NCBI GenBank assembly: GCA_903850565.1
Contig: CAINLV010000059.1
Location: forward strand, 15,981-79,980
Direction of reading: 5' to 3'
Length of the DNA: 64,000 nucleotides
From: an uncultured Actinomycetes bacterium
GTDB taxonomy: Bacteria > Actinomycetota > Actinomycetes > Nanopelagicales > Nanopelagicaceae
A model generated the notes under the pieces. The model was given only the letters and a program-made list of their open reading frames with translations, ran no database searches and was not told the DNA's origin. Made by a program: the position numbers and the translations under genes. Each line of letters begins with the position of its first letter. Positions within the stretch are counted from its first letter, which is position 1. Below are positions 40,238 through 54,109 of this stretch, one piece after another.

Positions 40238-41173
40238 ATGACCTCATTAACTCCCATCCCAAATACCGACCTAAAAGTTCATCCCCTTTGCCTAGGCGGA
40301 AATGTCTTCGGATGGAGCGCTGACGAAACCCAATCTTTTGAATTACTGGACGCCTATTTTGAGGCCGGTGGAAACTTCGTCGATACCGCCGATGTGTATT
40401 CAGAATGGAAACCAGGCAATACCGGCGGCGATTCCGAGATCATTATTGGAAAATGGATGAAAGCAAGGGGAAATCGAAGCAAAGTCATTATTGCTACGAA
40501 GGTCGCAAAATTTTCCCAGCGCCCAGGGTTGGCACCTGCAAATATCCGAAGTGCCGCCAGTGACTCACTTCGCAGGTTGCAAACCGATTACATAGATTTG
40601 TACTACGCCCACGAAGATGATGAAAAAGTTCCACAACTAGATACCCTGCAATCTTTTAATGAATTAATTACGGATGGCAAGGTTAGATATATCGGGGCAT
40701 CAAATTTTACAGGTGCTCGATTAAAATCCGCGAACGAAGTCGCTGTCGCAAATAACTTTTCGCCATATGCTGTAATTCAAAATAATTACAACCTCCTGGC
40801 CCGTTCTGAATATGAAGAAGATATGGCTCCAACTCTTACCGAGTTAGGGATCTCCTGTTTACCTTTCTTTGGATTAGCCCGTGGCTTTCTCAGTGGCAAG
40901 TATCGGGAAGGCGTAGTTGTGGAGTCAGTTCGTGCGGCAGGAGTTGCCGGATTCCAAAACGAAAGAGGTTGGAAGACTGTGGCTGCCCTGGAACAAATCG
41001 CCAATGCTCATCACACCTCGATTGCATCGGTTTCTTTGGCGTGGCTTCGAAGTCAACCAACGGTATGCGCTCCAATAGCCAGTGCAAGGACCGTGGAACA
41101 ACTGCGCGAAATCATGCAGGTCATAGAACTTTCTCCCGATGAAATCGCGCAACTGACTGCAATTACTGCCTAA
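40238..41173 (+). CDS. Aldo/keto reductase
   Basis: 311 aa. Motifs FVDTADVYS, IATKV, DLYYAHEDD and YIGASNF. Confidence 0.9.
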   Translation: MTSLTPIPNTDLKVHPLCLGGNVFGWSADETQSFELLDAYFEAGGNFVDTADVYSEWKPGNTGGDSEIIIGKWMKARGNRSKVIIATKVAKFSQRPGLAPANIRSAASDSLRRLQTDYIDLYYAHEDDEKVPQLDTLQSFNELITDGKVRYIGASNFTGARLKSANEVAVANNFSPYAVIQNNYNLLARSEYEEDMAPTLTELGISCLPFFGLARGFLSGKYREGVVVESVRAAGVAGFQNERGWKTVAALEQIANAHHTSIASVSLAWLRSQPTVCAPIASARTVEQLREIMQVIELSPDEIAQLTAITA

Positions 41174-42114
41174 CTTGCTGCAGGCGAGGCAGATGGATTT
41201 GCGCCGGCCCCTCGCCCAGCAAACCCATTACCTCCGCCCGTATTTGGCAATAAAGCTCGACACTTGGCAAGAGCATCTGCCACCTTTGGATCAGTTACAT
41301 CTGGTCGTGTCCCAGCCGCAAAGGTGACACCCGCCTTAGTTAAACAAGCGGTAAATTCTGGATTGCTGAATGGTCCACCAGCTCTAGCACCCCCACTTAT
41401 GGATGGCCGTGCGCTTGCTCCTGCGTTGGGAGTTGTCGATGTGGTCTTCTTCGAAGTTGAGGCTTGTGCCGTTGCGGCAGGTTTAGCAGTGGTTGGATTT
41501 GATGAAGAAGTTGGAGCGGATGCCCCTGCAGATTGACCGACAACTGTCGGGGTCTGCGTTATCACAATCGGCGTGACTGATCCATCAGCCTCAACCGGGC
41601 CAGTGACTGAAATTGAGTCCCCCACTTTTAGGGAAGTTAGATCACTTGGAACTGATTTTTCGACGGGCGTGTCCGCCGCAGCATTGACTGTCACTGAACT
41701 GCCATCCGTTTTCAAAATAACAATTGTATTTCCATCTATCTTGGTAATTGTCCCGGCATTGCCCCGACCGAAACCACCACCGGGAAATCCTGAACCTGGA
41801 GCCCCAATGGTTGCACCTGAAGCAGCACCAGTCGCTCCCGCACCACCTCCAAAAGAGGCGCGCAGGCTAGCAAAATCGGATGCCGCCGAACTCGCTGGTG
41901 TTCTGTGACCGTACCAAGCACCTGCAGAAGCAGCTGCAACTATAAGGAGCAACCCCGCCAGAATCGATGTGTATTTATTGGTCCATCGATACGTTCCCTT
42001 CGCCAACTCCTCCTTGAGATTATCTACCTCAGGAGTAGCGAAGAGATCGAAATCTTCGGAATCATTATTCATACCGTCCTCATTATTCATACCGTCCTCA
42101 TTATTCCTACTCAT
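41170..42114 (-). CDS. Single-pass membrane protein with Gly/Ala/Ser/Thr-rich ectodomain; last gene of the ABC exporter operon
   Basis: 314 aa. Acidic N-terminus with the tandem NNEDGM repeat, TM helix ILAGLLLIVAAASAGAW, a small beta domain (GTITKIDGNTIVILKTDGSSVTV..LKVGDSISVTG), and two Cys near the C-terminus. Overlaps the permease gene stop by 8 nt. Confidence 0.55.
   Translation of the reverse strand: MSRNNEDGMNNEDGMNNDSEDFDLFATPEVDNLKEELAKGTYRWTNKYTSILAGLLLIVAAASAGAWYGHRTPASSAASDFASLRASFGGGAGATGAASGATIGAPGSGFPGGGFGRGNAGTITKIDGNTIVILKTDGSSVTVNAAADTPVEKSVPSDLTSLKVGDSISVTGPVEADGSVTPIVITQTPTVVGQSAGASAPTSSSNPTTAKPAATAQASTSKKTTSTTPNAGASARPSISGGARAGGPFSNPEFTACLTKAGVTFAAGTRPDVTDPKVADALAKCRALLPNTGGGNGFAGRGAGANPSASPAAS
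42064..42106 (-). repeat. 18-bp tandem direct repeat (2 full copies plus a partial one) inside the 5' end of the 41170..42114 gene
   Basis: ATTATTCATACCGTCCTC occurs twice, then ATTATTC. It encodes NNEDGM-NNEDGM-NN in frame. Confidence 0.85.
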
Positions 42115-43327
42115 AACGAAGTGCCTCTATCGGTCGAAGGGATGCCGCACGGCTTGCTGGATATCCTCCAAAGAAGAGTCCGATCAGGACACTAACTCCG
42201 AAGGCCAAAAATACTGAGGACGGAACGATTACTGGTTTCACCCCAATGATCTGGAAGTGGGAACCGATATAGCCAGCCAGAACCCCTAAAGCACCACCCA
42301 CTAACGACAATATCGTGGCCTCTATGAGGAACTGCGAAAGGATTGCGCTCTTAGGTGCACCAATAGCTTTTCTAATACCGATTTCTCGGGTTCGTTCAAT
42401 GACCGTAACCAACATAATGTTGGTGATGCCAATACCGCCGACCAACAGTGAAATTCCTGCAACGACGCCTAGAAGCACCGTAAATACTTTGCTATTTGAA
42501 GAGGAAGTGGCCAGAAGCGTTGCTTGGTTGAAGAGGCGATAGTCACGGGTTGCCGTTGACTTCACATGATGCCTGGCATCCAAGATAGTTTGAATTTCGG
42601 TTTGAGCGGCATCAGTAGTCTTCGAAGATGTTGCTTCGACAATGATGGAGGACAAAGGTTTGTATCCAGTCAAGCTATTTTGAACTGCAGTAATCGGCGC
42701 TAAGAAAAGACTGTCGCCATCTTGGAAACCAGAAGAACCTTTGATTTCGGTGGTCCCGATAATGGTGAATGGAATTCCACCACATCTCACTGTTTGACCG
42801 ATGGGGCTATCAGTTCCAAATAAATCTGTCGCCGTAGTATTTCCAATTACTGCCACTCTTCGTCCTTCAGTGACATCGTCGTTAGTGAAGTAAGAACCCT
42901 TCGCAATGGCTACATTGCTGGCCTCGAAATATGCCGGCCAGGTTCCAGAAAAAGTTGATGGTGTGGAAGTGTTAGTCCCGTTCGTACACGTAGCATTTGC
43001 ATTGGCAATAGGAGCTACCTGCTTAATATCTGGAGCCAACGTCTTATCTACTAACGCAACTGCATCCAAAACTGTTAGCGCTTTGGTGCTGTTGGATGCA
43101 GATTGCGCTCTGGGTCCAAATCCAAAATTGCCGGAACGAACTTGAATCGAATTAGTACCCAATCTATCCAAACTTTGTTGAACGGCAAGTGAAGAACCGT
43201 TTCCCACGGCGATAAGGACGATTACTGACCCAACTCCGATTGCAATTCCCATGGTTGTAAGCGCGGTTCGGAGTTTATTTATGGTTAGGCCTCGAAGCGC
43301 AAATCTGATGATTTCCATTAAATTCAT
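42107..43327 (-). CDS. MacB/FtsX-type ABC transporter permease
   Basis: 406 aa. N-terminal TM helix, a large extracytoplasmic MacB_PCD-like domain and a C-terminal FtsX 3-TM bundle (TREIGIRKAIGA motif). Confidence 0.9.
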   Translation of the reverse strand: MNLMEIIRFALRGLTINKLRTALTTMGIAIGVGSVIVLIAVGNGSSLAVQQSLDRLGTNSIQVRSGNFGFGPRAQSASNSTKALTVLDAVALVDKTLAPDIKQVAPIANANATCTNGTNTSTPSTFSGTWPAYFEASNVAIAKGSYFTNDDVTEGRRVAVIGNTTATDLFGTDSPIGQTVRCGGIPFTIIGTTEIKGSSGFQDGDSLFLAPITAVQNSLTGYKPLSSIIVEATSSKTTDAAQTEIQTILDARHHVKSTATRDYRLFNQATLLATSSSNSKVFTVLLGVVAGISLLVGGIGITNIMLVTVIERTREIGIRKAIGAPKSAILSQFLIEATILSLVGGALGVLAGYIGSHFQIIGVKPVIVPSSVFLAFGVSVLIGLFFGGYPASRAASLRPIEALRYE

Positions 43328-44025
43328 ATAGACACCTTCCTATTCAAGGTGTCCTCAACAATCAAACCATCCCGCATTCGAATGACGCGCTTCGCCCGAT
43401 TGGCAACATCCATTTCGTGTGTGATCACTACAACGGTTCGGCCAGCAGCATTAATTTGATCGAAGAGATCTAAAAGATCTTCGGTTGATTTGGAATCCAA
43501 AGCTCCAGTTGGTTCATCCGCAAGTAACAGCGCTGGTCTAGTGGCCAAGGCTCGAGCAACTGCCACTCGTTGTTGTTGCCCACCCGAAAGTTCGGTGGGT
43601 TCGTGGTTCACGCGATCTGACAGACCAACAACCTCTAGCGCCTTCAGTGCACGTTTGCGCCGCTCTGCAGATTTGATGCCCTGATATGCCATTGGAAGTT
43701 CGACATTGGCCAAAGCGGTAGTACGTGGAATGAGATTAAACGACTGAAAAATAAAACCAATCTTTCGACCTCGGACAATAGAAAGGGCATTCTCATCCAT
43801 AGAAGAGACTTCAATTCCCTCTAAGAAGTAGGTTCCCGAAGTCATGGCATCCAGAGCCCCCATAATGTTCATCAGCGTTGATTTACCTGACCCCGATGGA
43901 CCCATGATGGCAACATATTCGCCGGGGAAGATTTCCAGATCTACTCCTGCTAGAGCAAAGATTGCAGAATCGCCTTGACCATATTGTTTAACCGCGCCTT
44001 TGACATCAATGACCGGTTGCATCAA
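43324..44025 (-). CDS. ABC transporter ATP-binding protein (MacB/LolD type)
   Basis: 233 aa. Walker [10 protein letters not shown], signature [15 protein letters not shown], Walker [13 protein letters not shown]. Confidence 0.95.
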
Positions 44026-46307
44026 CCGCCACCGCCACGACCGCCACCGCCACCAAAGCCACCGCCAGTACCGCCAGTCAACGTCCCCGCACCAGTTACT
44101 GATGGAACCGTTCCGGTTGGGAAGCCATTTGAACCCACCGATGATGTCGAAGTTCGTAGGGCAATGACATCTCCAGCTTTGATCCCCGAAAGAATTTCAT
44201 CAGATGAATCGCCTTGGAGACCTACAACAACGCGAGTCGAACTAATTAAATCTTTTCCAGCCACTTTGGTGACCACATTTACTGTGGAGCGAGTTCCCCT
44301 TGTGGTTACGGCTTGAGCAGAAACCTGAAGAACACCAACTACAGATCCCGTGGTGACGGTTGCGGTAGCGGACATTCCTGGTTTGAGGCCCGCGACCGGA
44401 GAATCTAAATCGAAGGTAACTGTGTAAGAAGTGGCCCCACTTGAAGTTGTAGGCAAGAGATCAATAGCAGAGACCGTTCCTGTAGGTGTCACATTTGGAA
44501 GTGCTTCGAAATTGAACGAAGTCGTTAACCCAACCTGTAATTTCGCGGTATCAGATTCTGAGAAACCGGCTTGTACCCGCAATGAACTGACATTCGTTAG
44601 AACTATAAACCCGGAAACCGTGCCAGCTGTTGCTGAAGCATTGGAGCCTGTAGATACCGATTGACCCACGGTAGAAGAAATTGAAGCAATATCACCGGCA
44701 ACCGGAGCCTTGATGGTGGTTGCCGCAAAATTCTTCTGCGCTAAGTTATATGAGGCCTGCGCAATCTCAATACTTGCTTGCGCTGCATCTACATCTGATT
44801 GCTTTGGCTGTTGCAGCGCAATCGCCTGTTGGGCTTGGAAGAGACTGAAGGACAACTTGGCATTATTTAGTGAATTGCGAAGGCTAGTTAGAGTTTGCGA
44901 ATTCGTTTGCGCATCCTTCGCCAAATTGTTGGTTTGGTTGGTGACAGCAGTGTCAACGGCCGATTGAAGATTGGCAAGATTCTGCGCATCTTTCTTTAAG
45001 CTCGTAGTTTGATTCTGCTGAGCGCTGGCATAAGCGGCTTGCGCTGAAACCACACTCTGAGCATCCTTCTTAATGTTGCTGGCTTGATTTGCAACGGCAG
45101 TATCAATGGCGGTCTGCAAATTTTCCAGATTTTGGGCGTCTTTATTGAGGTTAAGCGTTTGGCTCAATTGCGCATTTGTGTAAGCAGTTTGAGCAGCCAC
45201 AATTGCTTGAGCATCCTTCTTAATATTATTGGTCTGGCTCGCCAGAGCTGAAGCATAATTCGCTTTCGCTGAAAATAAAGAATTGTTGTTACTCAATATA
45301 TTCGAGCACTTGCTGAAGATGTCATTGATATTTGCCGCCGGGTACCCATACAAACTTAAGCTTTGACAATAGGCAACCGAATACCCATATGGTCCCCAGG
45401 TGTTGAGATAATTGCTAGCCGTGACCTGGGCTGATTGAAAAGTTAGATTGGCCGCATCCACACTTGCCTGATAGGTAATTTTGTTGGCATCGGCATTGGA
45501 TATTGCAATGTCCACATTATTTTTCGCCGTATCTACCGAACTTTGGTAACTGGTTTTATTTAATTCAGCAGTGGCAGTTGCTTCAACCAGCGAGCGCTTT
45601 GCTGCATCAATTGAATTTTGATAGGTGACTTTATTCGGGTCGATTGCTGCGGTTGCCACATCAAGATTTGTTTTCGAAGTATCGACCGAGTTTTGATAAG
45701 TAACTTTATTTAGATCTGCCAAGGCTTGAGCATCGGCCAAGGATTTCTTTGCCGAATCCACGGAAGCTTGATAGGTAGCCGCATTTGAAGTTTGGGAGTT
45801 CAGGGCCGTATCTAGATTAGCTTGTGCCACGTCTACAGAATTTTGAGATTGTTGTAATTGCAGAGCTGCCTGAGCTTGCTCGGCCACAGTTCGGGATGGC
45901 TTTAATTTGGCTAGCGCCGCTTTGGCATTCATCAACGAGGTGCTGGCTTGAATGAGTGCAGTATTTTGTGCGGTGGGATCTAGTTTTGCCAAGGTTTGCC
46001 CAGCTTTTACATGATCTCCCGCCGCCACGAATAACTTAGTCAATGTGCCCGCGACTGTCGGGTTTACACCAACATCGCCAGGGCTAATCACCTTTCCACT
46101 GGCCGAAACTGTCGCCGATACATCACCGATTCTGGCAATAGTGGTCACTGGTGCAGCCGCGGCAGCTTTTGGATGGAGCGCGCTCCAACCCCAAAATCCA
46201 ACGCCAGCGACTGCCACTACGAGAATGAGATTTATTGCAAGGATTCTGATTTTCGCCCGATTCATGCCGTGAACGCTAAATGCTTGGGGTGAGATTGTTA
46301 CCCTCAA
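44022..46307 (-). CDS. HlyD/membrane-fusion-protein-family periplasmic adaptor with a greatly expanded coiled-coil and a Gly-rich C-terminal tail
   Basis: 761 aa. N-terminal TM anchor and a biotinyl/lipoyl-like half-motif (VKAGQTLAKLD ... APVAGDI). Between them lie ~400 aa of Ala/Gln/Asn/Thr-rich repeats. C-terminal beta-barrel domains end in [17 protein letters not shown]. The start is uncertain (TTG at 46307 or ATG at 46265). Confidence 0.75.
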   Translation of the reverse strand: MRVTISPQAFSVHGMNRAKIRILAINLILVVAVAGVGFWGWSALHPKAAAAAPVTTIARIGDVSATVSASGKVISPGDVGVNPTVAGTLTKLFVAAGDHVKAGQTLAKLDPTAQNTALIQASTSLMNAKAALAKLKPSRTVAEQAQAALQLQQSQNSVDVAQANLDTALNSQTSNAATYQASVDSAKKSLADAQALADLNKVTYQNSVDTSKTNLDVATAAIDPNKVTYQNSIDAAKRSLVEATATAELNKTSYQSSVDTAKNNVDIAISNADANKITYQASVDAANLTFQSAQVTASNYLNTWGPYGYSVAYCQSLSLYGYPAANINDIFSKCSNILSNNNSLFSAKANYASALASQTNNIKKDAQAIVAAQTAYTNAQLSQTLNLNKDAQNLENLQTAIDTAVANQASNIKKDAQSVVSAQAAYASAQQNQTTSLKKDAQNLANLQSAVDTAVTNQTNNLAKDAQTNSQTLTSLRNSLNNAKLSFSLFQAQQAIALQQPKQSDVDAAQASIEIAQASYNLAQKNFAATTIKAPVAGDIASISSTVGQSVSTGSNASATAGTVSGFIVLTNVSSLRVQAGFSESDTAKLQVGLTTSFNFEALPNVTPTGTVSAIDLLPTTSSGATSYTVTFDLDSPVAGLKPGMSATATVTTGSVVGVLQVSAQAVTTRGTRSTVNVVTKVAGKDLISSTRVVVGLQGDSSDEILSGIKAGDVIALRTSTSSVGSNGFPTGTVPSVTGAGTLTGGTGGGFGGGGGRGGGG

Positions 46308-46328: not shown

Positions 46329-47096
46329 CTATTCTAAAACGGGGGTATACCAAGCCGAATTTTCGTGGCGGTCAATTACCCATCCCGAATATTCAATCAA
46401 TTCCGGCTTCAAAAACAAGTAGGCACCTTCGCGGCCAGAAACGACTAACGCGGTAGCTAAAGCATCCGCTAGCCCGCCATCGGGACCAATAACAGTGGCG
46501 CTACGGGCGCCAATGGCGATAAGACCTGTGTGAGGGTCTTTGATATGAGCGCCCCGTTCATAAGTACCAGAGGTTGCTACAGCCCCGCTAAAGATTTCGT
46601 AGACTTTTACGATCTGGTCAGCATGCTCTGGGTGGCGAATTCCGATAGACCAGGGTTTGTCCGGTTCCAATCCCCCGAAAAGGGATAAATCTCCAGCAGC
46701 ATTTATCTGAATATTTTCGGCCCCGCGCTTGCGTAAGATTTCAATACATCTATCTGCCGCCCAGCCTTTTACGTAGCCAGAGGGATCAAAACCGCCTTCC
46801 ACGCACCACGGGTCAAAATATCCATCGGTGATTTCAACGGCATCTACACACAAGTCCCACACCAGTTTTACATTGTTAGGCGCGTCATTAACGTCTACTT
46901 CGCCACGACGGATTTTGGAGACTGCCGAATCAGCTTTGTAGGTGGAAAAATCTTGATCCACTTCGATCACAAATTTGCGGACTTCATCAATTGCCAGATT
47001 TAGAGCGGTCTCGGAGCATTTTTCTGATGCAACATCGAGAAAAAGCACCGTGCCCCAGACTTCGATTTCACTTCGGACTCTGGCCCGTTGCGACAT
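46329..47096 (-). CDS. apbE: FAD:protein FMN transferase (ApbE family)
   Basis: 255 aa. Motifs VATSGTYERG, GWAADR and ADALATAL. Confidence 0.9.
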   Translation of the reverse strand: MSQRARVRSEIEVWGTVLFLDVASEKCSETALNLAIDEVRKFVIEVDQDFSTYKADSAVSKIRRGEVDVNDAPNNVKLVWDLCVDAVEITDGYFDPWCVEGGFDPSGYVKGWAADRCIEILRKRGAENIQINAAGDLSLFGGLEPDKPWSIGIRHPEHADQIVKVYEIFSGAVATSGTYERGAHIKDPHTGLIAIGARSATVIGPDGGLADALATALVVSGREGAYLFLKPELIEYSGWVIDRHENSAWYTPVLE

Positions 47097-47650
47097 TACA
47101 TTCCGGCCTTTGCCAATGCTGAAGCCAACGACTGTTGCCAGCCATAAGAGGTATATGAAGCCCCACCAACACCTTGGATATTGGCAGATTGTGCCTGCAA
47201 AGTTTCTTGAACCAAATAAGGCACTGCTTGAGAATTAATATTTTGAGATCTGAAATCCCGATTGGGAACTTGTAGCGCCGTCGCTGCAGTTATCTTTCGG
47301 TTAACAACAGTGATCTGTACCTGAACTGGCCCGTAGTTGGTTTGAATGGTACTTCCGGTAAAAGTTCCCGATATGGATTTCACTGCTGGCGCCGTGGTTT
47401 TTGTGGCCGGCTTCTTCGTTGCCTTTGGTGTTGCTTTTCGCGTCGCCTTGCTCGTGGCCTTGGTTGTCTTTTTCACTGTCGCTTTTTTTGTCGGCGTCGT
47501 AGAGGCAGCTGTAGTTTTTGTAGAAGTTGTCGGAGCAGCAGAATTTAAAAGCCCACCAGAACCACTTCCAAACTGCGGCGGTGTAATTGCCAACACCCCG
47601 CCTAGGCCTGCGACAGACCCAGTTACGATCAACATCGTTCTTTTAAGCAT
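47096..47650 (-). CDS. Membrane-anchored FMN-binding domain protein (Lys/Thr-rich linker)
   Basis: 184 aa. N-terminal TM helix, a T/K/A-rich linker and a C-terminal FMN_bind-like domain with the flavinylation-type motif IQGVGGASYTS. Confidence 0.75.
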   Translation of the reverse strand: MLKRTMLIVTGSVAGLGGVLAITPPQFGSGSGGLLNSAAPTTSTKTTAASTTPTKKATVKKTTKATSKATRKATPKATKKPATKTTAPAVKSISGTFTGSTIQTNYGPVQVQITVVNRKITAATALQVPNRDFRSQNINSQAVPYLVQETLQAQSANIQGVGGASYTSYGWQQSLASALAKAGM

Positions 47651-47673
47651 TTACTCCCCCAAGATTTTGATGA

Positions 47674-48567
47674 TTACAAACCAGCTTTTGCCAATGCTGA
47701 CGCTAAGGATTGCTGCCAACCATATGATGTATAGGAAGCGCCACCTACTCCTTGGATATCAGCAGATTGTGCTTGCAAAGTTTCTTGTACCAACCACGGT
47801 CCGGCTTGTTGTGAAATTTGATTGGTTCGGAATTGACCTTGTGGCATTTGCAAAGGCGCTGCTTCCGTAATTTTATTATCGACGATTGTTATTTGAACTT
47901 GGACTATGCCATATCTTGTTTGAAAGGCGCTGCCATTAAACGTTCCAGAGACCCCTGACTTTTTAGTCGGAGTCGGCGCCGCCGTGGTTTTGACCGGGGT
48001 GGGCGTGGGAGTTGGAGTCGGTGTTGGAGTTGGAGCCTTGGTGCTATGGGTAGGAATCGGGACGGGGGTACGGGTGCTATGTGTAGGAATAGGGACTGGT
48101 GTACGGGTGGAAGTGGCCCTAGGGGTTGCGCTAGTTGTGGCCGCAGAAGGCGTAGGAGTAGGCGTATCTGAGGCAACTGGCACTGAAGTGGTCGGGGTGG
48201 AATCAGGTGTCTGACTCTTTGTGGCGACTGGAGTTCCAGCAGCCTTCGTTGTTTTTTGCGGTTTTGGTTTGGAAGTTGCTGGCGTTGATCGCGGGGTCGC
48301 CTGGGAAGGCCTATCACTTGGCGTTGGTGTCGAAACATCGCTTGGAATAGGGGTGGAAGTTGTAGTTGCAGGATCGACACTTGAAGGTGTTGTGCTCTGT
48401 GCCGGTGTTGGAGCACCGCCATTCATGCTTGGACCAGAATTGGAATTCAAAGTTCCCATTGATGATCCTGATAGTCCGCCAGAGCCAAAGTTAGGTGGAG
48501 TTATGGAGAAAACCACTCCTAAACCACCAACTGTGCCAGTCGCAATTAAAATCGCGCGTTTCATCAT
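47674..48567 (-). CDS. Membrane-anchored FMN-binding domain protein (Pro/Thr-rich linker), paralogue of 47096..47650
   Basis: 297 aa. N-terminal TM helix, a ~170-aa P/T/S-rich linker with internal repeats, and the same C-terminal domain and motif, IQGVGGASYTS. Confidence 0.75.
   Translation of the reverse strand: MMKRAILIATGTVGGLGVVFSITPPNFGSGGLSGSSMGTLNSNSGPSMNGGAPTPAQSTTPSSVDPATTTSTPIPSDVSTPTPSDRPSQATPRSTPATSKPKPQKTTKAAGTPVATKSQTPDSTPTTSVPVASDTPTPTPSAATTSATPRATSTRTPVPIPTHSTRTPVPIPTHSTKAPTPTPTPTPTPTPVKTTAAPTPTKKSGVSGTFNGSAFQTRYGIVQVQITIVDNKITEAAPLQMPQGQFRTNQISQQAGPWLVQETLQAQSADIQGVGGASYTSYGWQQSLASALAKAGL
47990..48106 (-). repeat. Coding low-complexity repeats: a (Thr-Pro)n tract and a 33-bp tandem duplication
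   Basis: GTGCTATGGGTAGGAATCGGGACGGGGGTACGG (~48041-48073) is repeated with a few mismatches at ~48074-48106 (protein RTPVPIPTHST x2). A GGTGTTGGAGTTGGAG-type tract encoding TPTPTPTPTP precedes it. Confidence 0.8.
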
Positions 48568-49896
48568 TTACACCGAATGAAATTCAAAAGCTTCGTCGTG
48601 GAACCTATTCTTCGGAATTCCACAATCACTTGCAGCCTGTCGCACGGCATCGACCAACGGCGTTGGACCACAAACATATACGTCAGAATCCCTAAACGCT
48701 GGAACAAACTTCATAATGTATTTGGCGTTCATTGGATGCGTCTTACGGTTTCCAACCAAGTAATGAACGCGAGCACCACGTGCGTCAGCGATCTCATCCA
48801 GCTCTTTTCGGAGTACTAGATCCTCTTCCTTTGAAGCACGGAAAATTACATCAATGCTCTTTGATGAATCGAACTCTTCCATCAAGGCCCGAAGTGGAGT
48901 AATGCCTACACCACCACCAATTAGTACGACATGTCCGCGTGAAGCTCGCTCAGCAACAAAGGTGCCATAAGGCCCTTCGAAGAAAACTCGAGTTCCTGGT
49001 TCAATCTTTCGAACTGAACGCGAAGCATCACCCAACTCTTTTACCGTTACTCGCATGTACTGCTTAGTTGGCGCTGCCGATAGTGAATAAGGGTGAGAGA
49101 TCCACCATTGACCTGGAGTCATAAATCGCCAGCCGAAGAATTGTCCACCTTGTGCACTCAGTCGATCCAAATTGCGCCCGCGCATCACTACTGAAACTAC
49201 GCCGGGTCCCTCAACCACGACTTGTTCCACTCGTAATCCGTGACGAAGCGAGCGCACGGTTGGTATGACTAATCGCCACAGAACGATAATTGTTCCCGAA
49301 GCGATGTAGAGAAATTCCCAAAAATATTTATTTAGCGGATGTCCAATAAACATTGGCCCTGTAAGGATTTGGTGCATGAACGACAACGCAACCGCAAGGT
49401 AGGTATAGAGGTGGATGGTCCACCAAGTTTCATAAGACATCTTTGCGCGGGCTTTTTTGTAGGAACTGATCCCCGCTGCTGCGAAAAATATAAAGGCAAC
49501 CAAGGCTGGCAACATCCATGGGTAATGAACGACTAAGCGCCATAGTTCAACTGCCATTGGTGCATGATCGTTTCCGGCATAACCCAGAGTTACAAAGAGG
49601 ACGTGAAAGGTGATCAGATAAAGAGAGTACGGTCCCAATTTTCGGTGCCAAATAACTAAGCGATCATGGCCAACAGACTTTTCGATCCAGGAAACTCGAG
49701 AAACTAGGACTAAGCCGACTAGGGCCAGATAAGCACCCAGAAGGGCACACATCCGCGAAACCGAGGTCACGATGGCATAGAAAGAGGCCCAATCAGATTT
49801 AGTGGTGGTCTCCAGAAAGATGGCACTAGTTAAGCCGACGCCAAGCCCCAGAACCGTGGCGGCCAGATCTGCGTTGTACCGTTTCCCAATTGCCAT
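48568..49896 (-). CDS. Ferric-reductase-like transmembrane domain fused to an FAD/NAD(P)-binding ferredoxin-reductase-type module
   Basis: 442 aa. Six TM helices with paired His residues, then the HPYSLS (FAD) and LIGGGVGITP (NAD) motifs. Confidence 0.85.
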   Translation of the reverse strand: MAIGKRYNADLAATVLGLGVGLTSAIFLETTTKSDWASFYAIVTSVSRMCALLGAYLALVGLVLVSRVSWIEKSVGHDRLVIWHRKLGPYSLYLITFHVLFVTLGYAGNDHAPMAVELWRLVVHYPWMLPALVAFIFFAAAGISSYKKARAKMSYETWWTIHLYTYLAVALSFMHQILTGPMFIGHPLNKYFWEFLYIASGTIIVLWRLVIPTVRSLRHGLRVEQVVVEGPGVVSVVMRGRNLDRLSAQGGQFFGWRFMTPGQWWISHPYSLSAAPTKQYMRVTVKELGDASRSVRKIEPGTRVFFEGPYGTFVAERASRGHVVLIGGGVGITPLRALMEEFDSSKSIDVIFRASKEEDLVLRKELDEIADARGARVHYLVGNRKTHPMNAKYIMKFVPAFRDSDVYVCGPTPLVDAVRQAASDCGIPKNRFHDEAFEFHSV

Positions 49897-49999: not shown

Positions 50000-52900
50000 C
50001 TACTTAACCTGAATCTCCACCCGCCGATTGAGTGCCTGCCCGACTGGGTCGTTATTTGGGGCCACCGGCGAAGTTGCTGCCTTAGCCGCAGTTTTGATTG
50101 AAATATTTTGCTTGGCAAGTGCATTCCCCAGATATTGGGCAACTGCGGCAGCTCTTTGAGCTGACAATTTCTGATTGTCAAAGGTTCCAGAACCAGAGCT
50201 ATCGGTATAACCCAATAGGTAAATGCTGGTGAATCCATATTTGGAAACACTGGCAACAACTGCGTCCAAAATCTTTATCGCCGCTGGGGTCAACTTCGAC
50301 AATCCCAAATCAAAGTTCACATTAGCTATGGAAGCGAAGCGATTAGGAATGGATAAATTGACGATGAAGATCTGTCCAGTGTCGGCAGTTCCCCTAACCT
50401 CCACGACATCACCTGGCCCAAGAATCACTGGGAGTTTGATCTCGTTACCGCTTGATACGGTGACTTTGATCTGTACACCATTGACTAGCACTTCGACCTT
50501 CACGATGTTCTTTGACATATTTAGTTGGATGATTTGAGCCAACGAAATGATCTGATTGACCTGAACTTTCTTTTGACCAAGGTTAGATTTGAATTCGGCT
50601 TTGAAGAAAGTTTCCGAACTCTTAAGCCACTGGGCATAGAGATTGGTATTTGCGGTCGGGACTAAGTCAGTACCAACCAGCGCTTCAGTTCCAGAACCAT
50701 CAGCGACGGTATTCCAACCAATGAAGATGAACCCTATTTTGGAAAGCGAACCTGGAAGAACCACAAGTGATGCAGTCCCGACTTTGTAATTCTGCGTTGC
50801 AGGGGCTGATCCCGAAGTTGCTTTATTTGCGTAGTAGTAGACCTTGTAAACTTTAGGGATCCAGTCGGCAAACAAGTTCAATTTGAGATCTTGGGTGAGA
50901 ACCAATTTCTGTCCTACGGCGTAGGAAATGCCAGAGCCGTTGGCTTCCGTGTTCCAGCCACCAAAGTTGTACCCCTCTAGGGTGAACCCGGTTTTAGGAA
51001 GAGTAACTTTCAGTGTGGAGTTATGAATTGGATCCATGGAACCAGTACCACCATTGCCATCAAAAATGATGTCACAGAGGAAAAGGTTGGACTTCCATAC
51101 CGCGGTCAGCACCAAATCATGACCTGGCATTTCAAAATTGGCGCTCGGAACATACGACTTGGTTCCATCACTCCATCCAATGAAGGTGTTATCTGGATAT
51201 CGCAGTCCACTGCCATTCGGCAGATTAAAGTGCGCTGCCACTTCGAGAGTTTGATTTCGTGGCACCGTACCGATGATCCCCGAACCATCACCTAAGGAGT
51301 AAGAAACCGTAAAGGTGTCCGCAGCAAATGTGACCACCACGGTGTGATCGCCACTGATGGCTGCGAAGTTATAACCAGCTGGAGCACCTGCCTGAACTTG
51401 GCCATCCACACTCAGGCTTGCGATGTGGTGGAAGGCGCTTGGGGTGAAGACGTAAATCTGATGGGCGCCGAAAGTAAATGAAGTAGCTCCGCTTGGGGTG
51501 ATCGTTCCAGAGCCGGTTGCTGAGGCGGTGATGGTGTAGTGATTGATCGTCCAGAGCGCATAGACCGTCCCACTGCCACTAGGGATATAGGGCGAGGTCA
51601 ACGCGGTCCCACTGGGCGATAGCGACCAGCCTGCGAAGGAGTACCCGGTCTTGGCCAAAGAACCAGCGGCGGGCAAGGTTATTGCCGAACCACCGACCAC
51701 AAAGATGGCTGGGCTAGGTAGGGTCCCACTCGTTTCGCCACTTCCAGAATAGGTAATGGTGTACTGGACGAGATCCACTTCAAATATTGCCATCACGGAT
51801 CGAGCCGAAACGATATTGCCATCGTTTCTAGTCGCCGAGCGGGCATCATCAGACCAACGCAGGAAGTGATAGCCAGTATGTGCCAGTGCCACCACGGGTG
51901 AAGCTGACATGGCGTAGGCAACAGATTGTGCTGGTATCCCCGAGATATAACCCCCGGTGCTAGCGGTGTAGTTAACCGGGTAGAAATTAATATTCCATAC
52001 CGCATAGAGGGTGATATCGGCGGCGAAGTCATAGGTAGAACCATCTGAATAGACCACCACGCCGCCGGCAGAGGTTGCCCAACCAGTGAAGGTGTAACCG
52101 GAGCGAGTGAAGGTGCTGGTCGCTAGAGCAGTAGGAACTCCAAATTCCTGATCGACCATACTTCCAGTGCCACCATAAACGTTAAATGAAACTAGGTGAG
52201 TACCCGACAAAACTGGAGTCCAGACCGCATACAAAATTACATCTAAATCTTCAACGCTTAGCAATTCATCAGGGCTGTAAGAAGTCCCCAGCCCATCGGC
52301 TTGGGTATTCCATCCGGCAAATGTGTATCCGGTGCGAACCAGTGTTCCAGTATTTCCTAGAACTGTTGCTGAAGTGTTGTAATCGTGGCTGGCTTCATCA
52401 ACGGGAACAGAACCAGCAGTATTTTCATTTCCGTGGTAGGTCACGGTGTGATTATTGAGAGACCAGTGACCATACAAAGTTAAATCGTCCGTGAAATCCC
52501 ATAGCCATGATTGACCAGTGGGGCCACGAGGTTCACCGCCCCCCGTAGGTGCCAAGTACCAACCTAAGAAGGTGTGCCCTCTGTACTCAGGCGCAGATGC
52601 TGAACTTGCATATCCGTCAACCGTGAAAGATCCTGGATCAACTGGACTGCCACCTTGGCTGTCATAAGTAACGGTGTATGTATTAGGCCTCCACTGTGCG
52701 ATGAAGGTGGCATCTATTCCAAATGCATACACTTCATTGTCATCATAATTTTCCGTGCCACTAATTAGATTATGCGTAATCCACCCGTCGAAGGTGTAAC
52801 CGGCGAGAATAAAGGTGTTACTTCGAAGGGCTGTTGGTGTAGAGGCAGATTGATCGGCCATTGTTCCAGTTCCACCATTGGCATCAAAGGTGACGGTATG

Positions 52901-54109
52901 AGGACTCACCGTCCACTTTGCATAGAGATCAACGTCAAAGGAGAAGTTATAAATAGCTCCGTCATCAAGGATAATTGCGCCGTCAGAATAAGTTGCCCAG
53001 CCGGCAAAGAACCAACCATCCCGAGTAAAAGTATTTCTGTTTAACGCAGTCGTGTCATTTGATACCTGCGGATCCATCGACCCAGATCCACCATTGGCGT
53101 GGAAAGTCAAGGTGTGATTCGACAGTGCTGTCCACTGGGCATACAGAGTAACGTTGTGAGTAAAGTCAAAAGTTCCTAGTTCTTCATAATTAATACTTCC
53201 GCTAGACATGGTTGACCACCCCATGAAGTAATACCCGCTTCGAGTAAAACTGTTTGGAGCCAAAGATGCACTCGCTCCCGTTGTGTTTTCTTGAGGAGAC
53301 ATGGTTCCAGTTCCACCGTTAGCGTCAAAGGTGACCGTGTGAGATGGATCCGCACATCCATCGCCTGGGGAATTTACAACGATCTCAACGGATGGGGTAA
53401 CTCCATCTCCAAAAATATAGCCGTCTGGAAGACTGGTGATAGCTGTAAAGGTGTAGCTTCCAATAACGCAGGGATTGAAATTATCCGTATCTCTCCAACC
53501 GGTGATTGTGTATGAAAGTGTTTGAGCTCCTCCATCTCCAAAGTAACCCGTTTGAAAGTAATCCACCGAGTCAGGAAGCATGCACGCTGGAGTATTGCAA
53601 ATATAGGTGTAGCTATTGAAATTTATGTCGGAAATCGGGTCAACGCTTGTCACCCAATCCCAGGCCCAAACTGCATACAAAGGCAAGTCGGCAGAAAAGC
53701 CATAAGAGTTTTCGTCAAAAAATCTAACGTAACCAACTACGTCGACATAGAACCCTGGAGCAACGACTGTCGTGGACCAACCTGTGAAAAAGTAACCGCT
53801 CTTAGTAAAAGTATTTTTTGTCAATGCGATGGTATCGTACTCAGTTTGATCGCTCATGGTTCCCGTGCCGCCATTATTATCAAACGTAACGGTGTGTGGA
53901 AGAATGAGCGTCCAGAGTGCATACAGAGTTGTATCCGCAGCAAAGTCATAACTTTCGCCATCGGTGTAAACCACTGGGCCACTTGCCGAAGTTGCCCACC
54001 CGTCGAAGGTGTAACCAGTGCGAGTAAATGTATTCGCCGTGAGCGCTGTGGCCACATTGGTGACTTGATCGCTCATGGTTCCGGAGCCACCATTATTGTC
54101 GAAGATCAA
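50000..54109 (-). CDS. Giant cell-surface protein, main part: Listeria-Bacteroides (InlB B-repeat/Flg_new-type) repeats and a C-terminal OmpA-like peptidoglycan-binding domain
   Basis: 1369 aa. Units recur of the form TVTFDANGGTGTMSDQ...FTRSGYTFTGWATSASG..Y.DG..YDF..D.TLYAVW. The C-terminus YLLGYTDSSGSGTFDNQKLSAQRAAAVAQYL...NRRVEIQV is OmpA_C-like. The reading frame continues upstream through one TAG into 54188..54751. Confidence 0.85.
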   Translation of the reverse strand: MIFDNNGGSGTMSDQVTNVATALTANTFTRTGYTFDGWATSASGPVVYTDGESYDFAADTTLYALWTLILPHTVTFDNNGGTGTMSDQTEYDTIALTKNTFTKSGYFFTGWSTTVVAPGFYVDVVGYVRFFDENSYGFSADLPLYAVWAWDWVTSVDPISDINFNSYTYICNTPACMLPDSVDYFQTGYFGDGGAQTLSYTITGWRDTDNFNPCVIGSYTFTAITSLPDGYIFGDGVTPSVEIVVNSPGDGCADPSHTVTFDANGGTGTMSPQENTTGASASLAPNSFTRSGYYFMGWSTMSSGSINYEELGTFDFTHNVTLYAQWTALSNHTLTFHANGGSGSMDPQVSNDTTALNRNTFTRDGWFFAGWATYSDGAIILDDGAIYNFSFDVDLYAKWTVSPHTVTFDANGGTGTMADQSASTPTALRSNTFILAGYTFDGWITHNLISGTENYDDNEVYAFGIDATFIAQWRPNTYTVTYDSQGGSPVDPGSFTVDGYASSASAPEYRGHTFLGWYLAPTGGGEPRGPTGQSWLWDFTDDLTLYGHWSLNNHTVTYHGNENTAGSVPVDEASHDYNTSATVLGNTGTLVRTGYTFAGWNTQADGLGTSYSPDELLSVEDLDVILYAVWTPVLSGTHLVSFNVYGGTGSMVDQEFGVPTALATSTFTRSGYTFTGWATSAGGVVVYSDGSTYDFAADITLYAVWNINFYPVNYTASTGGYISGIPAQSVAYAMSASPVVALAHTGYHFLRWSDDARSATRNDGNIVSARSVMAIFEVDLVQYTITYSGSGETSGTLPSPAIFVVGGSAITLPAAGSLAKTGYSFAGWSLSPSGTALTSPYIPSGSGTVYALWTINHYTITASATGSGTITPSGATSFTFGAHQIYVFTPSAFHHIASLSVDGQVQAGAPAGYNFAAISGDHTVVVTFAADTFTVSYSLGDGSGIIGTVPRNQTLEVAAHFNLPNGSGLRYPDNTFIGWSDGTKSYVPSANFEMPGHDLVLTAVWKSNLFLCDIIFDGNGGTGSMDPIHNSTLKVTLPKTGFTLEGYNFGGWNTEANGSGISYAVGQKLVLTQDLKLNLFADWIPKVYKVYYYANKATSGSAPATQNYKVGTASLVVLPGSLSKIGFIFIGWNTVADGSGTEALVGTDLVPTANTNLYAQWLKSSETFFKAEFKSNLGQKKVQVNQIISLAQIIQLNMSKNIVKVEVLVNGVQIKVTVSSGNEIKLPVILGPGDVVEVRGTADTGQIFIVNLSIPNRFASIANVNFDLGLSKLTPAAIKILDAVVASVSKYGFTSIYLLGYTDSSGSGTFDNQKLSAQRAAAVAQYLGNALAKQNISIKTAAKAATSPVAPNNDPVGQALNRRVEIQVK

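What the first reader, a model, noticed from the sequence alone, without database searches (positions are those of the whole stretch)
44022..46307. MacB-type exporter adaptor with a ~400-residue coiled-coil insertion and a poly-Gly tail in a monoderm
Membrane-fusion proteins normally have alpha-hairpins of tens of residues. Here the segment between the two lipoyl-like half-motifs is ~400 aa of Ala/Gln/Asn/Thr-rich sequence with two families of internal repeats.
- NKVTYQNS(V/I)D(T/A)(S/A)K.N(L/V)-type repeats.
- NNIKKDAQ.(I/V)V(A/S)AQ(T/A)AY(T/A).AQ ... LKKDAQNL(E/A)NLQ(T/S)A(I/V)DTAV(A/T)NQ-type repeats.

If it folds as a hairpin it would be tens of nm long, far beyond what a cell without a classical outer membrane needs. 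The protein ends in [17 protein letters not shown].
Basis: partly seen in the sequence, partly recalled or inferred. Interest (0 to 1): 0.6.

Follow-up and report, generated by a model that had tools for sequence, protein, structure and literature searches.

The report
Giant-hairpin adaptor of a MacB pump
A freshwater actinobacterium's ABC-pump adaptor protein carries a real helical hairpin about 25-30 nm long, built from matched 25-residue modules; such long hairpins are normal for this actinobacterial family, and this one lies at the long end.

Summary
The ORF at 44022-46307 (-) is a MacA/YknX-type membrane-fusion protein; its true start is probably M15 at 46265. 424 residues lie between its two lipoyl half-domains, against about 95 in E. 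coli MacA. It ends in a Gly-rich tail.

The insert is a hairpin. AF2 predicts two continuous helices of 167 and 174 residues. Across 110 homologues the two arm lengths co-vary (r = 0.96, slope 0.93). Both arms are 25-residue repeats with hydrophobic period about 3.58, so each unit is seven helical turns, about 3.7 nm.

The tip is a small module with two near-invariant cysteines around a loop of variable length.

The gene heads a conserved four-gene cassette: adaptor, MacB-type ATPase, MacB-type permease, and a TM-anchored DUF5666 protein. The genome has no TolC-family gene.

Long hairpins are routine here: the median insert is 254 residues in 137 cluster representatives, and seven true hairpins, counting this one, reach 400 or more. 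About 25-30 nm also matches a measured actinobacterial wall (about 30 nm), so it is not "far beyond" need. The Gly tail is general in actinobacterial adaptors.

Most likely the hairpin forms a TolC-independent, wall-spanning duct or stalk. This is a new variant of a known kind, of moderate interest.

The parts
44022..46307 (-). Adaptor (membrane-fusion protein) gene. The longest ORF is 761 aa from a TTG; the likely true start is the ATG at 46265 (M15), giving 747 aa.
   Evidence: TIGR01730 scores 110.9 bits against a cut-off of 94.9. Homologues start at MNRAK. The best PDB sequence and fold match is MacA.
46176..46253 (-). N-terminal transmembrane anchor (residues 19-44).
   Evidence: Hydrophobic stretch IRILAINLILVVAVAGVGFWGWSALH; AF2 helix 19-44; conserved in the family.
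45978..46145 (-). N-terminal strands of the beta-barrel and the N-terminal half of the lipoyl domain (residues 55-110).
   Evidence: Pfam Biotin_lipoyl_2 at 81-110. AF2 strands, pLDDT 70-86. Mean majority-residue frequency 0.81.
45423..45977 (-). Ascending hairpin arm (residues 111-295). It comprises a basal helix 112-133, a Pro-containing break at 134-140, then a continuous helix from 141. Five to six 25-residue units of the type NK.TYQ.SVD.AK.NL.
   Evidence: Tyr at 179, 204, 229, 254 and 279.
45252..45422 (-). Hairpin tip module (residues 296-352). Conserved scaffold N299, Y300, P306, G308, S310, C314 and C334, with a Cys-Cys loop of variable length (19 residues here, 8-21 in the family).
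   Evidence: AF2 gives a short helix 311-316 and a break at 317-323.
44718..45251 (-). Descending hairpin arm (residues 353-530). Five 25-residue units of the type Q..N(I/L)KKDAQ, a continuous helix to residue 497, a Pro-containing break at 498-502, then a basal helix 503-528.
44148..44717 (-). C-terminal half of the lipoyl domain, the beta-barrel and the membrane-proximal domain (residues 531-720). Includes a long disordered S/T/G-rich loop at 547-565, where MacA and Spr0693 carry their gating loop.
   Evidence: HlyD_3 at 531-644. Aligns to MacA residues 142-365. AF2 pLDDT 76-86, but below 50 at 547-565.
44025..44147 (-). Disordered Gly-rich C-terminal tail (residues 721-761), ending [14 protein letters not shown]. 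This is the only part of the gene that is a tandem repeat at DNA level.
   Evidence: TRF finds a repeat at 44025-44076. AF2 pLDDT is below 40. The tail is conserved family-wide.
43324..44025 (-). MacB-type ABC ATPase on a separate polypeptide. Its start overlaps the adaptor gene's stop.
   Evidence: ABC_tran, E = 2.8e-32. The top NCBIfam hit is the NBD part of MacB. Orthologues are 80-89% identical.
42107..43327 (-). MacB-type permease (MacB_PCD plus FtsX domains).
   Evidence: PF12704, E = 1.1e-41; PF02687, E = 1.7e-19. Orthologues are 69-85% identical.
41170..42114 (-). Fourth cassette gene, overlapping the permease stop by 8 bases. The product has one TM helix, a Gly-rich spacer, a small OB-like beta domain (DUF5666), a disordered linker, and a two-helix C-terminal module with invariant C257 and C285.

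Best explanation
This is the membrane-anchored adaptor (MacA/YknX type) of a four-gene MacB-type ABC system in a TolC-less freshwater actinobacterium of the acI/Nanopelagicaceae-like family.

Shown: the alpha-hairpin has grown by adding 25-residue, seven-turn modules (about 3.7 nm each) in equal numbers to both arms. This gives two antiparallel helices of about 170 continuous residues, or about 200 counting the basal helices. The hairpin is 25-30 nm long. It is capped by a small module that is probably stapled by a disulfide between C314 and C334.

Inferred by homology with the MacA and Spr0693 hexamers: six copies ring the MacB dimer, and their hairpins pack into a 12-helix tube or stalk. With no outer-membrane channel to dock on, this structure would itself cross the wall zone. 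The pump would then release substrates picked up at the outer face of the membrane into or beyond the wall. The substrate is unknown.

The length is a tuned family trait, not a one-off oddity.
For: Identity:
- TIGR01730 scores above its cut-off, and the lipoyl halves are split.
- The best PDB match by sequence is MacA, E = 3e-36.
- The best match by fold is MacA in MacAB-TolC, E = 9e-14, aligned across the hairpin.
- A MacB-type ATPase and permease lie adjacent, with overlapping stop and start codons.

Hairpin:
- AF2 predicts continuous helices 141-307 and 324-497. They are tied together at both ends, by the shared lipoyl domain and by the 16-residue tip.
- Arm lengths co-vary over 110 homologues: r = 0.96, slope 0.93, range 88/93 to 203/200.
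- A tree built on non-hairpin columns shows at least two independent large expansions and one contraction, each matched in both arms.
- The 25-residue lag is the top period in both expanded clades. The hydrophobic period is 3.56-3.60, close to 25/7, in most of the long hairpins tested, including most from other classes.

Scale: 25-26 nm for the continuous helices and 29-31 nm with the basal helices. S. coelicolor sacculi measure about 30 nm (PMC7300013). The pneumococcal MacAB-like pump was proposed to deliver substrate into the wall (PMC5768738).

No TolC/OEP gene is found in the 94.7%-complete genome, although the same search hits 8 of 14 control genomes.

The cassette is conserved across about 50 loci, and the pump parts are 70-89% identical.
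Against: - No oligomer was modelled and no coordinates were available, so the hexameric tube rests on homology alone.
- AF2 confidence over the arms is only moderate (pLDDT 57-75; mean 67.7; pTM 0.37).
- The arms are very polar and poor in charge (A/N/S/Q/T). Their stability as a monomer is doubtful.
- The envelope thickness of these ultra-small cells is unknown and may be much less than 30 nm.
- The cassette is missing, at E <= 1e-20, from 11 of 16 other genera of the family, including four closed genomes. It is accessory, and nothing points to a substrate.
- One homologue (P0094) has arms that differ by 25 residues.
Confidence: 0.6

Rival explanations
1. The hairpin is a mechanotransmission stalk, not a duct. 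It acts as a rigid lever that carries the ATP-driven movement of the MacB periplasmic domain to the tip module. The tip then acts on, or holds, a partner in the wall, for example a hydrolase, an S-layer or wall polymer, or the Cys-pair module of the fourth gene's product. FtsEX works this way through the coiled coils of EnvC, PcsB and RipC.
For: - MacB-type transporters work by mechanotransmission, and FtsEX relatives use long coiled coils to control wall enzymes (reviews and papers listed: PMC5985334, PMC7668044, PMC6355983).
- The tip has a conserved scaffold (N299, Y300, P306, G308, C314, C334), which would suit a contact site.
- A conserved fourth protein with its own invariant Cys pair sits on long flexible linkers.
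- No substrate gene is evident nearby.
Against: - The protein keeps the full lipoyl, beta-barrel and membrane-proximal set that forms the hexameric ring and channel in MacA and Spr0693.
- It keeps a loop at the position of the MacA gating ring.
- The length of the fourth protein does not follow hairpin length (r = -0.15, n = 37).
- The tip is overall the least conserved region (0.58).
- No hydrolase gene is linked.
Confidence: 0.2
2. The hairpin is mainly a surface-exposed spacer or decoy. In this view its length and tip loop change under pressure from phages or grazers, or together with the surface layer, and length has little to do with transport.
For: - Length changed within one genus: 153/150 in four congeners against 203/200 here.
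- The Cys-Cys loop varies from 8 to 21 residues, and the tip is the most variable region.
- The adaptor is about 50% identical between loci whose pump parts are 70-89% identical.
Against: - Changes come in exact matched 25-residue units that keep the helical phase. That indicates structural constraint, not free drift.
- The repeat units are old: 44-65% nucleotide identity.
- Most lineages hold one length across many species: about 25 clusters at 116/116 and about 38 at 121/114.
Confidence: 0.12
3. The insert is low-complexity, largely disordered filler, or an assembly artefact, with no defined structure.
For: The composition is biased (A/N/S/Q/T about 61%), and AF2 confidence is moderate.
Against: - The identical protein is seen on 7 contigs.
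- There is no DNA-level tandem repeat in the hairpin.
- A strict 25-residue register has a hydrophobic period of 3.58.
- The arms are of equal length and co-vary.
- AF2 predicts helix throughout.
Confidence: 0.03

Closest known systems
E. coli MacA of the MacAB-TolC pump (PDB 5NIK, 9QGY, 3FPP)
   Same: - Best sequence and fold match.
- N-terminal TM anchor.
- Lipoyl domain split by an alpha-hairpin, followed by a beta-barrel and a membrane-proximal domain.
- Partnered with a MacB-type (type VII) ABC transporter.
   Different: - The hairpin insert is 424 residues against about 95.
- There is no TolC partner in the genome.
- The tip carries a Cys-pair module instead of a TolC-docking turn.
- The protein ends in a Gly-rich tail.
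- The NBD and permease are separate proteins.
- The MacA equivalog model scores 87 bits against a cut-off of 342.
Spr0693-Spr0694-Spr0695 of Streptococcus pneumoniae (PDB 5XU0; PMC5768738)
   Same: - A MacAB-like pump of a monoderm with a separate NBD and permease.
- A hexameric adaptor nanotube proposed to carry substrate from the membrane face into the wall.
   Different: - The pneumococcal helical barrel is about 5.6 nm high, and the whole assembly is about 15.4 nm. Here the hairpin alone is 25-30 nm.
- There is no fourth DUF5666 gene.
- There are no 25-residue repeats, and no Cys-pair tip is described.
YknWXYZ of Bacillus subtilis
   Same: - A four-component MacB-type system of a Gram-positive bacterium.
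- Its adaptor YknX has a hairpin and a membrane-proximal domain (PMC8277102; PMC4446572).
- Precomputed Pfam labels on this family include Beta-barrel_YknX (PF25990).
   Different: - The fourth component there is the four-TM protein YknW. Here it is a single-TM DUF5666 protein.
- The hairpin here is far longer.
Long-hairpin adaptors EmrA and HlyD of Gram-negatives (PDB 4TKO, 8ZAR, 7SGR)
   Same: An adaptor whose extended helical hairpin does much of the spanning. The PDB matches are weaker than to MacA.
   Different: - They still dock on TolC.
- From memory, not measured here, their hairpins are roughly 11-13 nm, less than half of this one.
- Their transporter classes differ (MFS; type I secretion ABC).

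Membership tests
Membrane-fusion / periplasmic adaptor proteins (TIGR01730 RND_mfp; HlyD superfamily) | The family HMM scores above its curated cut-off. | tested here: met
   TIGR01730 scores 110.9 bits against a cut-off of 94.9. Biotin_lipoyl_2 scores 35.6 against 29.8, and HlyD_3 scores 22.3 against 22.2.
Membrane-fusion / periplasmic adaptor proteins (TIGR01730 RND_mfp; HlyD superfamily) | A lipoyl domain made of two halves that flank an antiparallel alpha-helical hairpin, followed by a beta-barrel. | tested here: met
   The halves lie at residues 81-110 and 531 onwards. AF2 predicts helices 112-307 and 324-528 between the strand sets. The arms co-vary at r = 0.96. The fold match to MacA runs across the hairpin.
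Membrane-fusion / periplasmic adaptor proteins (TIGR01730 RND_mfp; HlyD superfamily) | Encoded next to its inner-membrane transporter. | tested here: met
   The ATPase and permease follow with overlapping stop and start codons. The order is conserved in 70 or more loci.
Membrane-fusion / periplasmic adaptor proteins (TIGR01730 RND_mfp; HlyD superfamily) | Forms a hexameric ring or tube around the transporter. | not testable with these tools
   Only a monomer could be predicted, and no coordinates were returned.
MacA orthologues (NF008606 equivalog) / classical tripartite MacAB-TolC | The equivalog HMM scores above its cut-off. | tested here: not met
   87.3 bits against a cut-off of 342. The protein is MacA-like but not a MacA orthologue.
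MacA orthologues (NF008606 equivalog) / classical tripartite MacAB-TolC | An outer-membrane factor (TolC/OEP family) as third component. | tested here: not met
   PF02321 has no match in the 94.7%-complete genome at E <= 0.01, while the same search hits 8 of 14 control genomes.
MacB-type (type VII) ABC transporters | A permease with a MacB periplasmic core domain plus an FtsX-type C-terminal TM domain, and a cognate ABC ATPase. | tested here: met
   PF12704, E = 1.1e-41; PF02687, E = 1.7e-19; ABC_tran, E = 2.8e-32. The top NCBIfam hit for both proteins is MacB.
YknWXYZ-type four-component systems | The fourth component is a YknW-like four-TM membrane protein. | tested here: not met
   The fourth gene's product has one TM helix (47-64) and a DUF5666/OB-like ectodomain.

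The most novel reading that the evidence does not exclude
Monoderm Actinomycetota build a self-sufficient, TolC-less exit duct from the adaptor alone. Its hairpin length acts as a molecular ruler set to the depth of the envelope (wall plus any surface layer). The length is adjusted in quanta of 25 residues, or seven turns (about 3.7 nm), added to both arms at once so that helical phase and tip geometry are kept. In this reading, species-level jumps such as 153/150 to 203/200 within one genus record changes in envelope architecture. The disulfide-stapled tip with its variable loop is the external gate or docking site.
Probability: 0.25. Interest if true: 0.7.

Novelty: new variant of a known kind. 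Interest (0 to 1): 0.45.

Why it matters
Why Gram-positive bacteria keep hairpin-bearing efflux adaptors when they have no outer-membrane channel to dock on is an acknowledged open question (PMC4446572).

This family offers a natural length series. Arms run from about 90 to about 200 residues and change in matched 25-residue steps, within one conserved four-gene cassette. That series makes the question testable: does hairpin length follow envelope thickness, and does the hairpin form a duct through the wall?

The 25-residue, seven-turn module is also a simple design rule for lengthening an antiparallel helical assembly without losing register.

For the organism, the cassette is an accessory envelope machine in one of the most abundant groups of freshwater bacteria. 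Its substrate is unknown.

Tried and rejected
1. The fourth gene's product as a tether that reaches the hairpin tip. Its length does not follow the hairpin insert (Pearson -0.15, Spearman -0.01, n = 37). Rejected as a length-matched partner.

2. A second adaptor in the genome as a paralogue. Contig C36 is 2.35 kb and carries ApbE, the adaptor and the ATPase in the same order. It is most likely a co-binned relative's orthologous locus.

3. Recent slippage or an assembly artefact. Rejected: TRF finds no tandem repeat in the hairpin, the units are 44-65% identical at DNA level, and the identical protein occurs on 7 contigs.

4. P0237 (868 aa, apparent insert 539) as a still longer hairpin. Rejected: it is a different architecture with repeated lipoyl-like modules.

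5. The pump as a core housekeeping system, suggested by 80-89% ATPase identity. Weakened: the cassette is absent from 11 of 16 other genera of the family.

6. Literature searches for very long adaptor hairpins in Actinobacteria found nothing specific.

7. The fold search of the fourth protein gave only weak OB-fold matches, with best E = 1.5e-3.

9. The structure tool returned no coordinates. Helix packing, the Cys-Cys distance and the rod length could not be measured on the model. Lengths are computed from residue counts at 0.148-0.15 nm per residue.
Full report
**What is there**

The minus-strand ORF 44022-46307 translates to 761 residues from a TTG. Homologues begin at MNRAK/MNKSR, so the real start is probably M15 (ATG at 46265), giving 747 aa.

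Pfam places a biotin-lipoyl half-domain at residues 81-110 and HlyD_3 at 531-644. NCBIfam TIGR01730 (adaptor subunit) scores 110.9 bits against a cut-off of 94.9. The MacA equivalog model scores only 87 bits against a cut-off of 342.

A profile of the family finds E. coli MacA as the best solved relative (E = 3e-36). The AF2 model's best fold match is MacA inside MacAB-TolC (E = 9e-14), aligned over about 670 columns, which means across the hairpin.

Three genes follow, with overlapping stop and start codons:
- a MacB-type ATPase (43324-44025);
- a MacB_PCD + FtsX permease (42107-43327);
- a fourth gene (41170-42114).

**The insert**

424 residues lie between the conserved D110 and P535. By the same anchors E. 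coli MacA has about 95 (D93 to P189, read from the alignment). The composition is A 19.5%, N 11.3%, S 11.1%, Q 10.8%, L 8.9% and T 8.2%, with few charged residues.

They stack in a strict 25-residue register with a 50-residue super-repeat:
- Tyr sits at residues 179, 204, 229, 254 and 279.
- K/NKDAQ recurs in the same 25-residue register down the descending arm (units starting at 358, 383, 408, 433 and 458).
- Identity at lags 25 and 50 is 0.34-0.47, against 0.10-0.11 in shuffles (z = 8-14).
- No shuffle out of 1000 reached the observed maximum over all lags.

The hydrophobic period is 3.55-3.60, which matches 25/7 = 3.57. Each unit is therefore seven helical turns, about 3.7 nm.

**It is a hairpin**

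AF2 used 31 sequences and gave mean pLDDT 67.7. It predicts helices 112-133, 141-307 (167 aa), a short 311-316, then 324-497 (174 aa) and 503-528. Pro-containing breaks sit at matched heights near the base, at 134-140 and 498-502. The two long helices leave from one lipoyl domain and are joined by 16 residues at the far end. They must therefore run antiparallel side by side.

Independent evidence comes from the family. Over 110 homologues, the length from D110 to C314 and the length from C334 to P535 correlate at r = 0.96 with slope 0.93. They range from 88/93 to 203/200.

A tree built only from non-hairpin columns shows several separate length changes:
- The window's 203/200 protein is nested in a 153/150 clade.
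- Neighbouring lineages in the same part of the tree are 128/125 and 132/132.
- A sister clade has contracted to 102/107 and 88/93.
- A separate 184/186 clade is nested within 121/114 relatives.

Every change is mirrored in the other arm. The second expanded clade uses different repeat sequences at a different height of the hairpin, yet it again has a 25-residue period.

Residue counts at 0.148-0.15 nm per residue give 25-26 nm for the continuous helices and 29-31 nm with the basal helices. No coordinates were returned, so this was not measured on the model.

**The tip and the tail**

Residues about 296-352 are not repeats. They form an aromatic-rich module with conserved N299, Y300, P306, G308, S310, C314 and C334. 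The two cysteines are invariant or nearly so. The loop between them varies from 8 to 21 residues and is 19 here. A disulfide is likely in this extracytoplasmic setting, but that is inferred. Overall the tip is the least conserved region (mean majority-residue frequency 0.58, against about 0.80 for the beta domains).

The Gly-rich tail is disordered in the model (pLDDT below 40). It is conserved across the family and occurs in distant actinobacterial adaptors, including short-hairpin ones. It is the only part of the gene that is a tandem repeat at DNA level. Its role is unknown. A similar GGGFGRG stretch lies just outside the TM helix of the fourth gene's product.

**Not an artefact**

The identical protein was found on 7 contigs. 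TRF sees no DNA repeat in the hairpin. The 75-nt units are 44-65% identical, with only about half of the codons the same where the amino acid is shared. The duplications are therefore old.

**How unusual is it?**

Four surveys bear on this.

1. Word-indexed search. It returned 680 hits, and the best 120 are 515-764 aa. This tool only considers proteins of 0.55-1.75 times the query length.

2. Genome loci from one genome per species. The freshwater clade has inserts of 188-321. Acidimicrobiia, Thermoleophilia/Gaiellaceae and other Actinomycetota have 270-445, for example 445, 403, 382, 376 and 371. Only two Aeromicrobium loci have classical inserts of 65-74.

3. The generic adaptor model over 401 evenly drawn Actinomycetota genomes.
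   - 197 genomes have an adaptor.
   - Among the 150 frames listed, the median is about 480 aa.
   - Ten frames are 600 aa or longer.
   - Only two (748 and 751 aa) approach this one's 768-aa frame (counted by hand from the table).

4. A search with no length filter over 1.84 billion cluster representatives.
   - Among 137 of the best 150 that have both anchors, the median insert is 254 (IQR 216-313).
   - Eight reach 400 or more. One of these (539) is a different multi-lipoyl architecture.
   - The true hairpins are 452, 440, 424 and the window's 420-424, followed by 413, 407 and 404.

Long hairpins are thus the rule in this actinobacterial subfamily. This protein is in the top few percent but is not unique.

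Within its own genus, four other species carry 655-675-aa frames, the 153/150 type. The last two units per arm were therefore gained at about species level.

**Context**

The host genome is 2.03 Mb in 115 contigs, 48% GC and 94.7% complete. Relatives are freshwater actinobacterial MAGs, including Candidatus Nanopelagicaceae.

No TolC/OEP-family gene is found, though the same search hits 8 of 14 control genomes. There is one MacB cassette. A second adaptor, on the 2.35-kb contig C36, lies in the same ApbE-adaptor-ATPase order and is probably a co-binned relative.

The four-gene order is conserved in about 50 freshwater loci. The ATPase is 79-89% identical and the permease 68-85%, against about 36-54% for the adaptor. 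A DUF5666-type ORF also follows the permease in other classes. The cassette is nevertheless absent, at E <= 1e-20, from 11 of 16 other genera of the family, including four closed genomes. It is accessory.

**How it most likely works**

Shown:
- the domain set of a MacA-type adaptor;
- a paired hairpin 25-30 nm long made of seven-turn modules;
- linkage to a MacB-type transporter;
- no TolC gene in the genome.

Inferred: by homology with the MacA and Spr0693 hexamers, six hairpins form a 12-helix tube on top of the lipoyl and beta-barrel rings.

The period of about 3.57-3.6, instead of the canonical 3.5, fits nearly straight helices of the kind that build alpha-barrels such as TolC. That comparison rests on my own knowledge, not on a test here.

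The S/T/G-rich loop at 547-565 sits where MacA and Spr0693 carry their gating ring.

The pneumococcal assembly rises about 15.4 nm, and its authors propose that it delivers substrate into the wall (PMC5768738). S. coelicolor sacculi are about 30 nm thick (PMC7300013). A hairpin of 25-30 nm is therefore of the order of an actinobacterial wall, not far beyond it. The envelope of these very small planktonic cells has not been measured in anything I could find.

I put the wall-spanning duct or stalk at 0.6. The rivals are:
- a mechanotransmission stalk acting on a wall partner, 0.2;
- a surface-exposed element whose length and tip vary under outside pressure, 0.12;
- disordered filler or an artefact, 0.03.

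**Novelty**

Reviews note that Gram-positive adaptors keep hairpins, and that hairpin length changes by heptads (PMC4446572; PMC8277102). My searches found no description of any of the following:
- arms of about 200 residues;
- a 25-residue module;
- a Cys-stapled tip;
- the DUF5666 partner in Actinomycetota.

Earlier notes in this scan report related things in other genomes. These include MacB pumps with DUF5666 partners in Actinomycetota, giant adaptors in Lachnospiraceae, and a domain on a hairpin tip. I took them as leads, not evidence. They suggest the theme is recurrent.

I file this as a new variant of a known kind, of moderate interest.

Noticed in passing
window 41170-42114 (-): The fourth cassette gene's product has these parts: an acidic N-terminus with an NNEDGM repeat, a TM helix at 47-64, a Gly-rich spacer containing GGGFGRG, a confident OB-like beta domain at 119-187, a disordered S/T/A/P linker, and a two-helix C-terminal module with invariant C257 and C285. 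The beta domain matches DUF5666 and gives only weak Foldseek hits to cold-shock/RPA OB folds and to the CusF-like C-terminal domain of SilB. A DUF5666-type ORF follows the permease in nearly every locus, including other classes. The Cys-pair module is specific to the freshwater clade and is missing in a few members (L003, L004, L005, L057).
   Followed up: partly
window 46329-49896 (-): A ferric-reductase-like protein, two FMN-binding proteins and ApbE lie directly upstream of the adaptor. The same arrangement is seen in roughly 30 of about 57 freshwater-clade loci. It is absent from other loci and from the distant classes. Whether the flavin module and the pump are functionally linked was not tested.
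   Followed up: partly
own genome, contig C36 (2353 bp; locus L081): A second ApbE-adaptor-ATPase stretch in the same gene order. Its adaptor is 561 aa with 116/116 arms and is only 45-51% identical to the window's. It is most likely the orthologous locus of a co-binned related population, that is, bin contamination or strain mixture, and not a paralogue.
   Followed up: partly
protein P0094 (homologue, 680 aa): Its arms are 184/161. One 25-residue unit is missing from the descending arm only, unlike its three closest relatives at 184/186. This is either a tolerated mismatch or a collapsed repeat in that assembly.
   Followed up: no
window 44025-44076 (-): The Gly-rich tail is encoded by a 15-bp/6-bp tandem DNA repeat (ACCGCC on the + strand). 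Tail length differs among close relatives. It may be prone to slippage.
   Followed up: no
window 50000-54109 (-): A 1369-aa protein with 11 Listeria-Bacteroides (Flg_new) repeats and a C-terminal OmpA-like, peptidoglycan-binding domain. It is a large wall-anchored surface protein just upstream of the flavin cluster.
   Followed up: no
protein P0237 (868 aa, library hit): An adaptor relative in which the space between the outer lipoyl halves is filled by several extra lipoyl-like/beta modules separated by short helical pairs. This is a different way of lengthening an adaptor.
   Followed up: no
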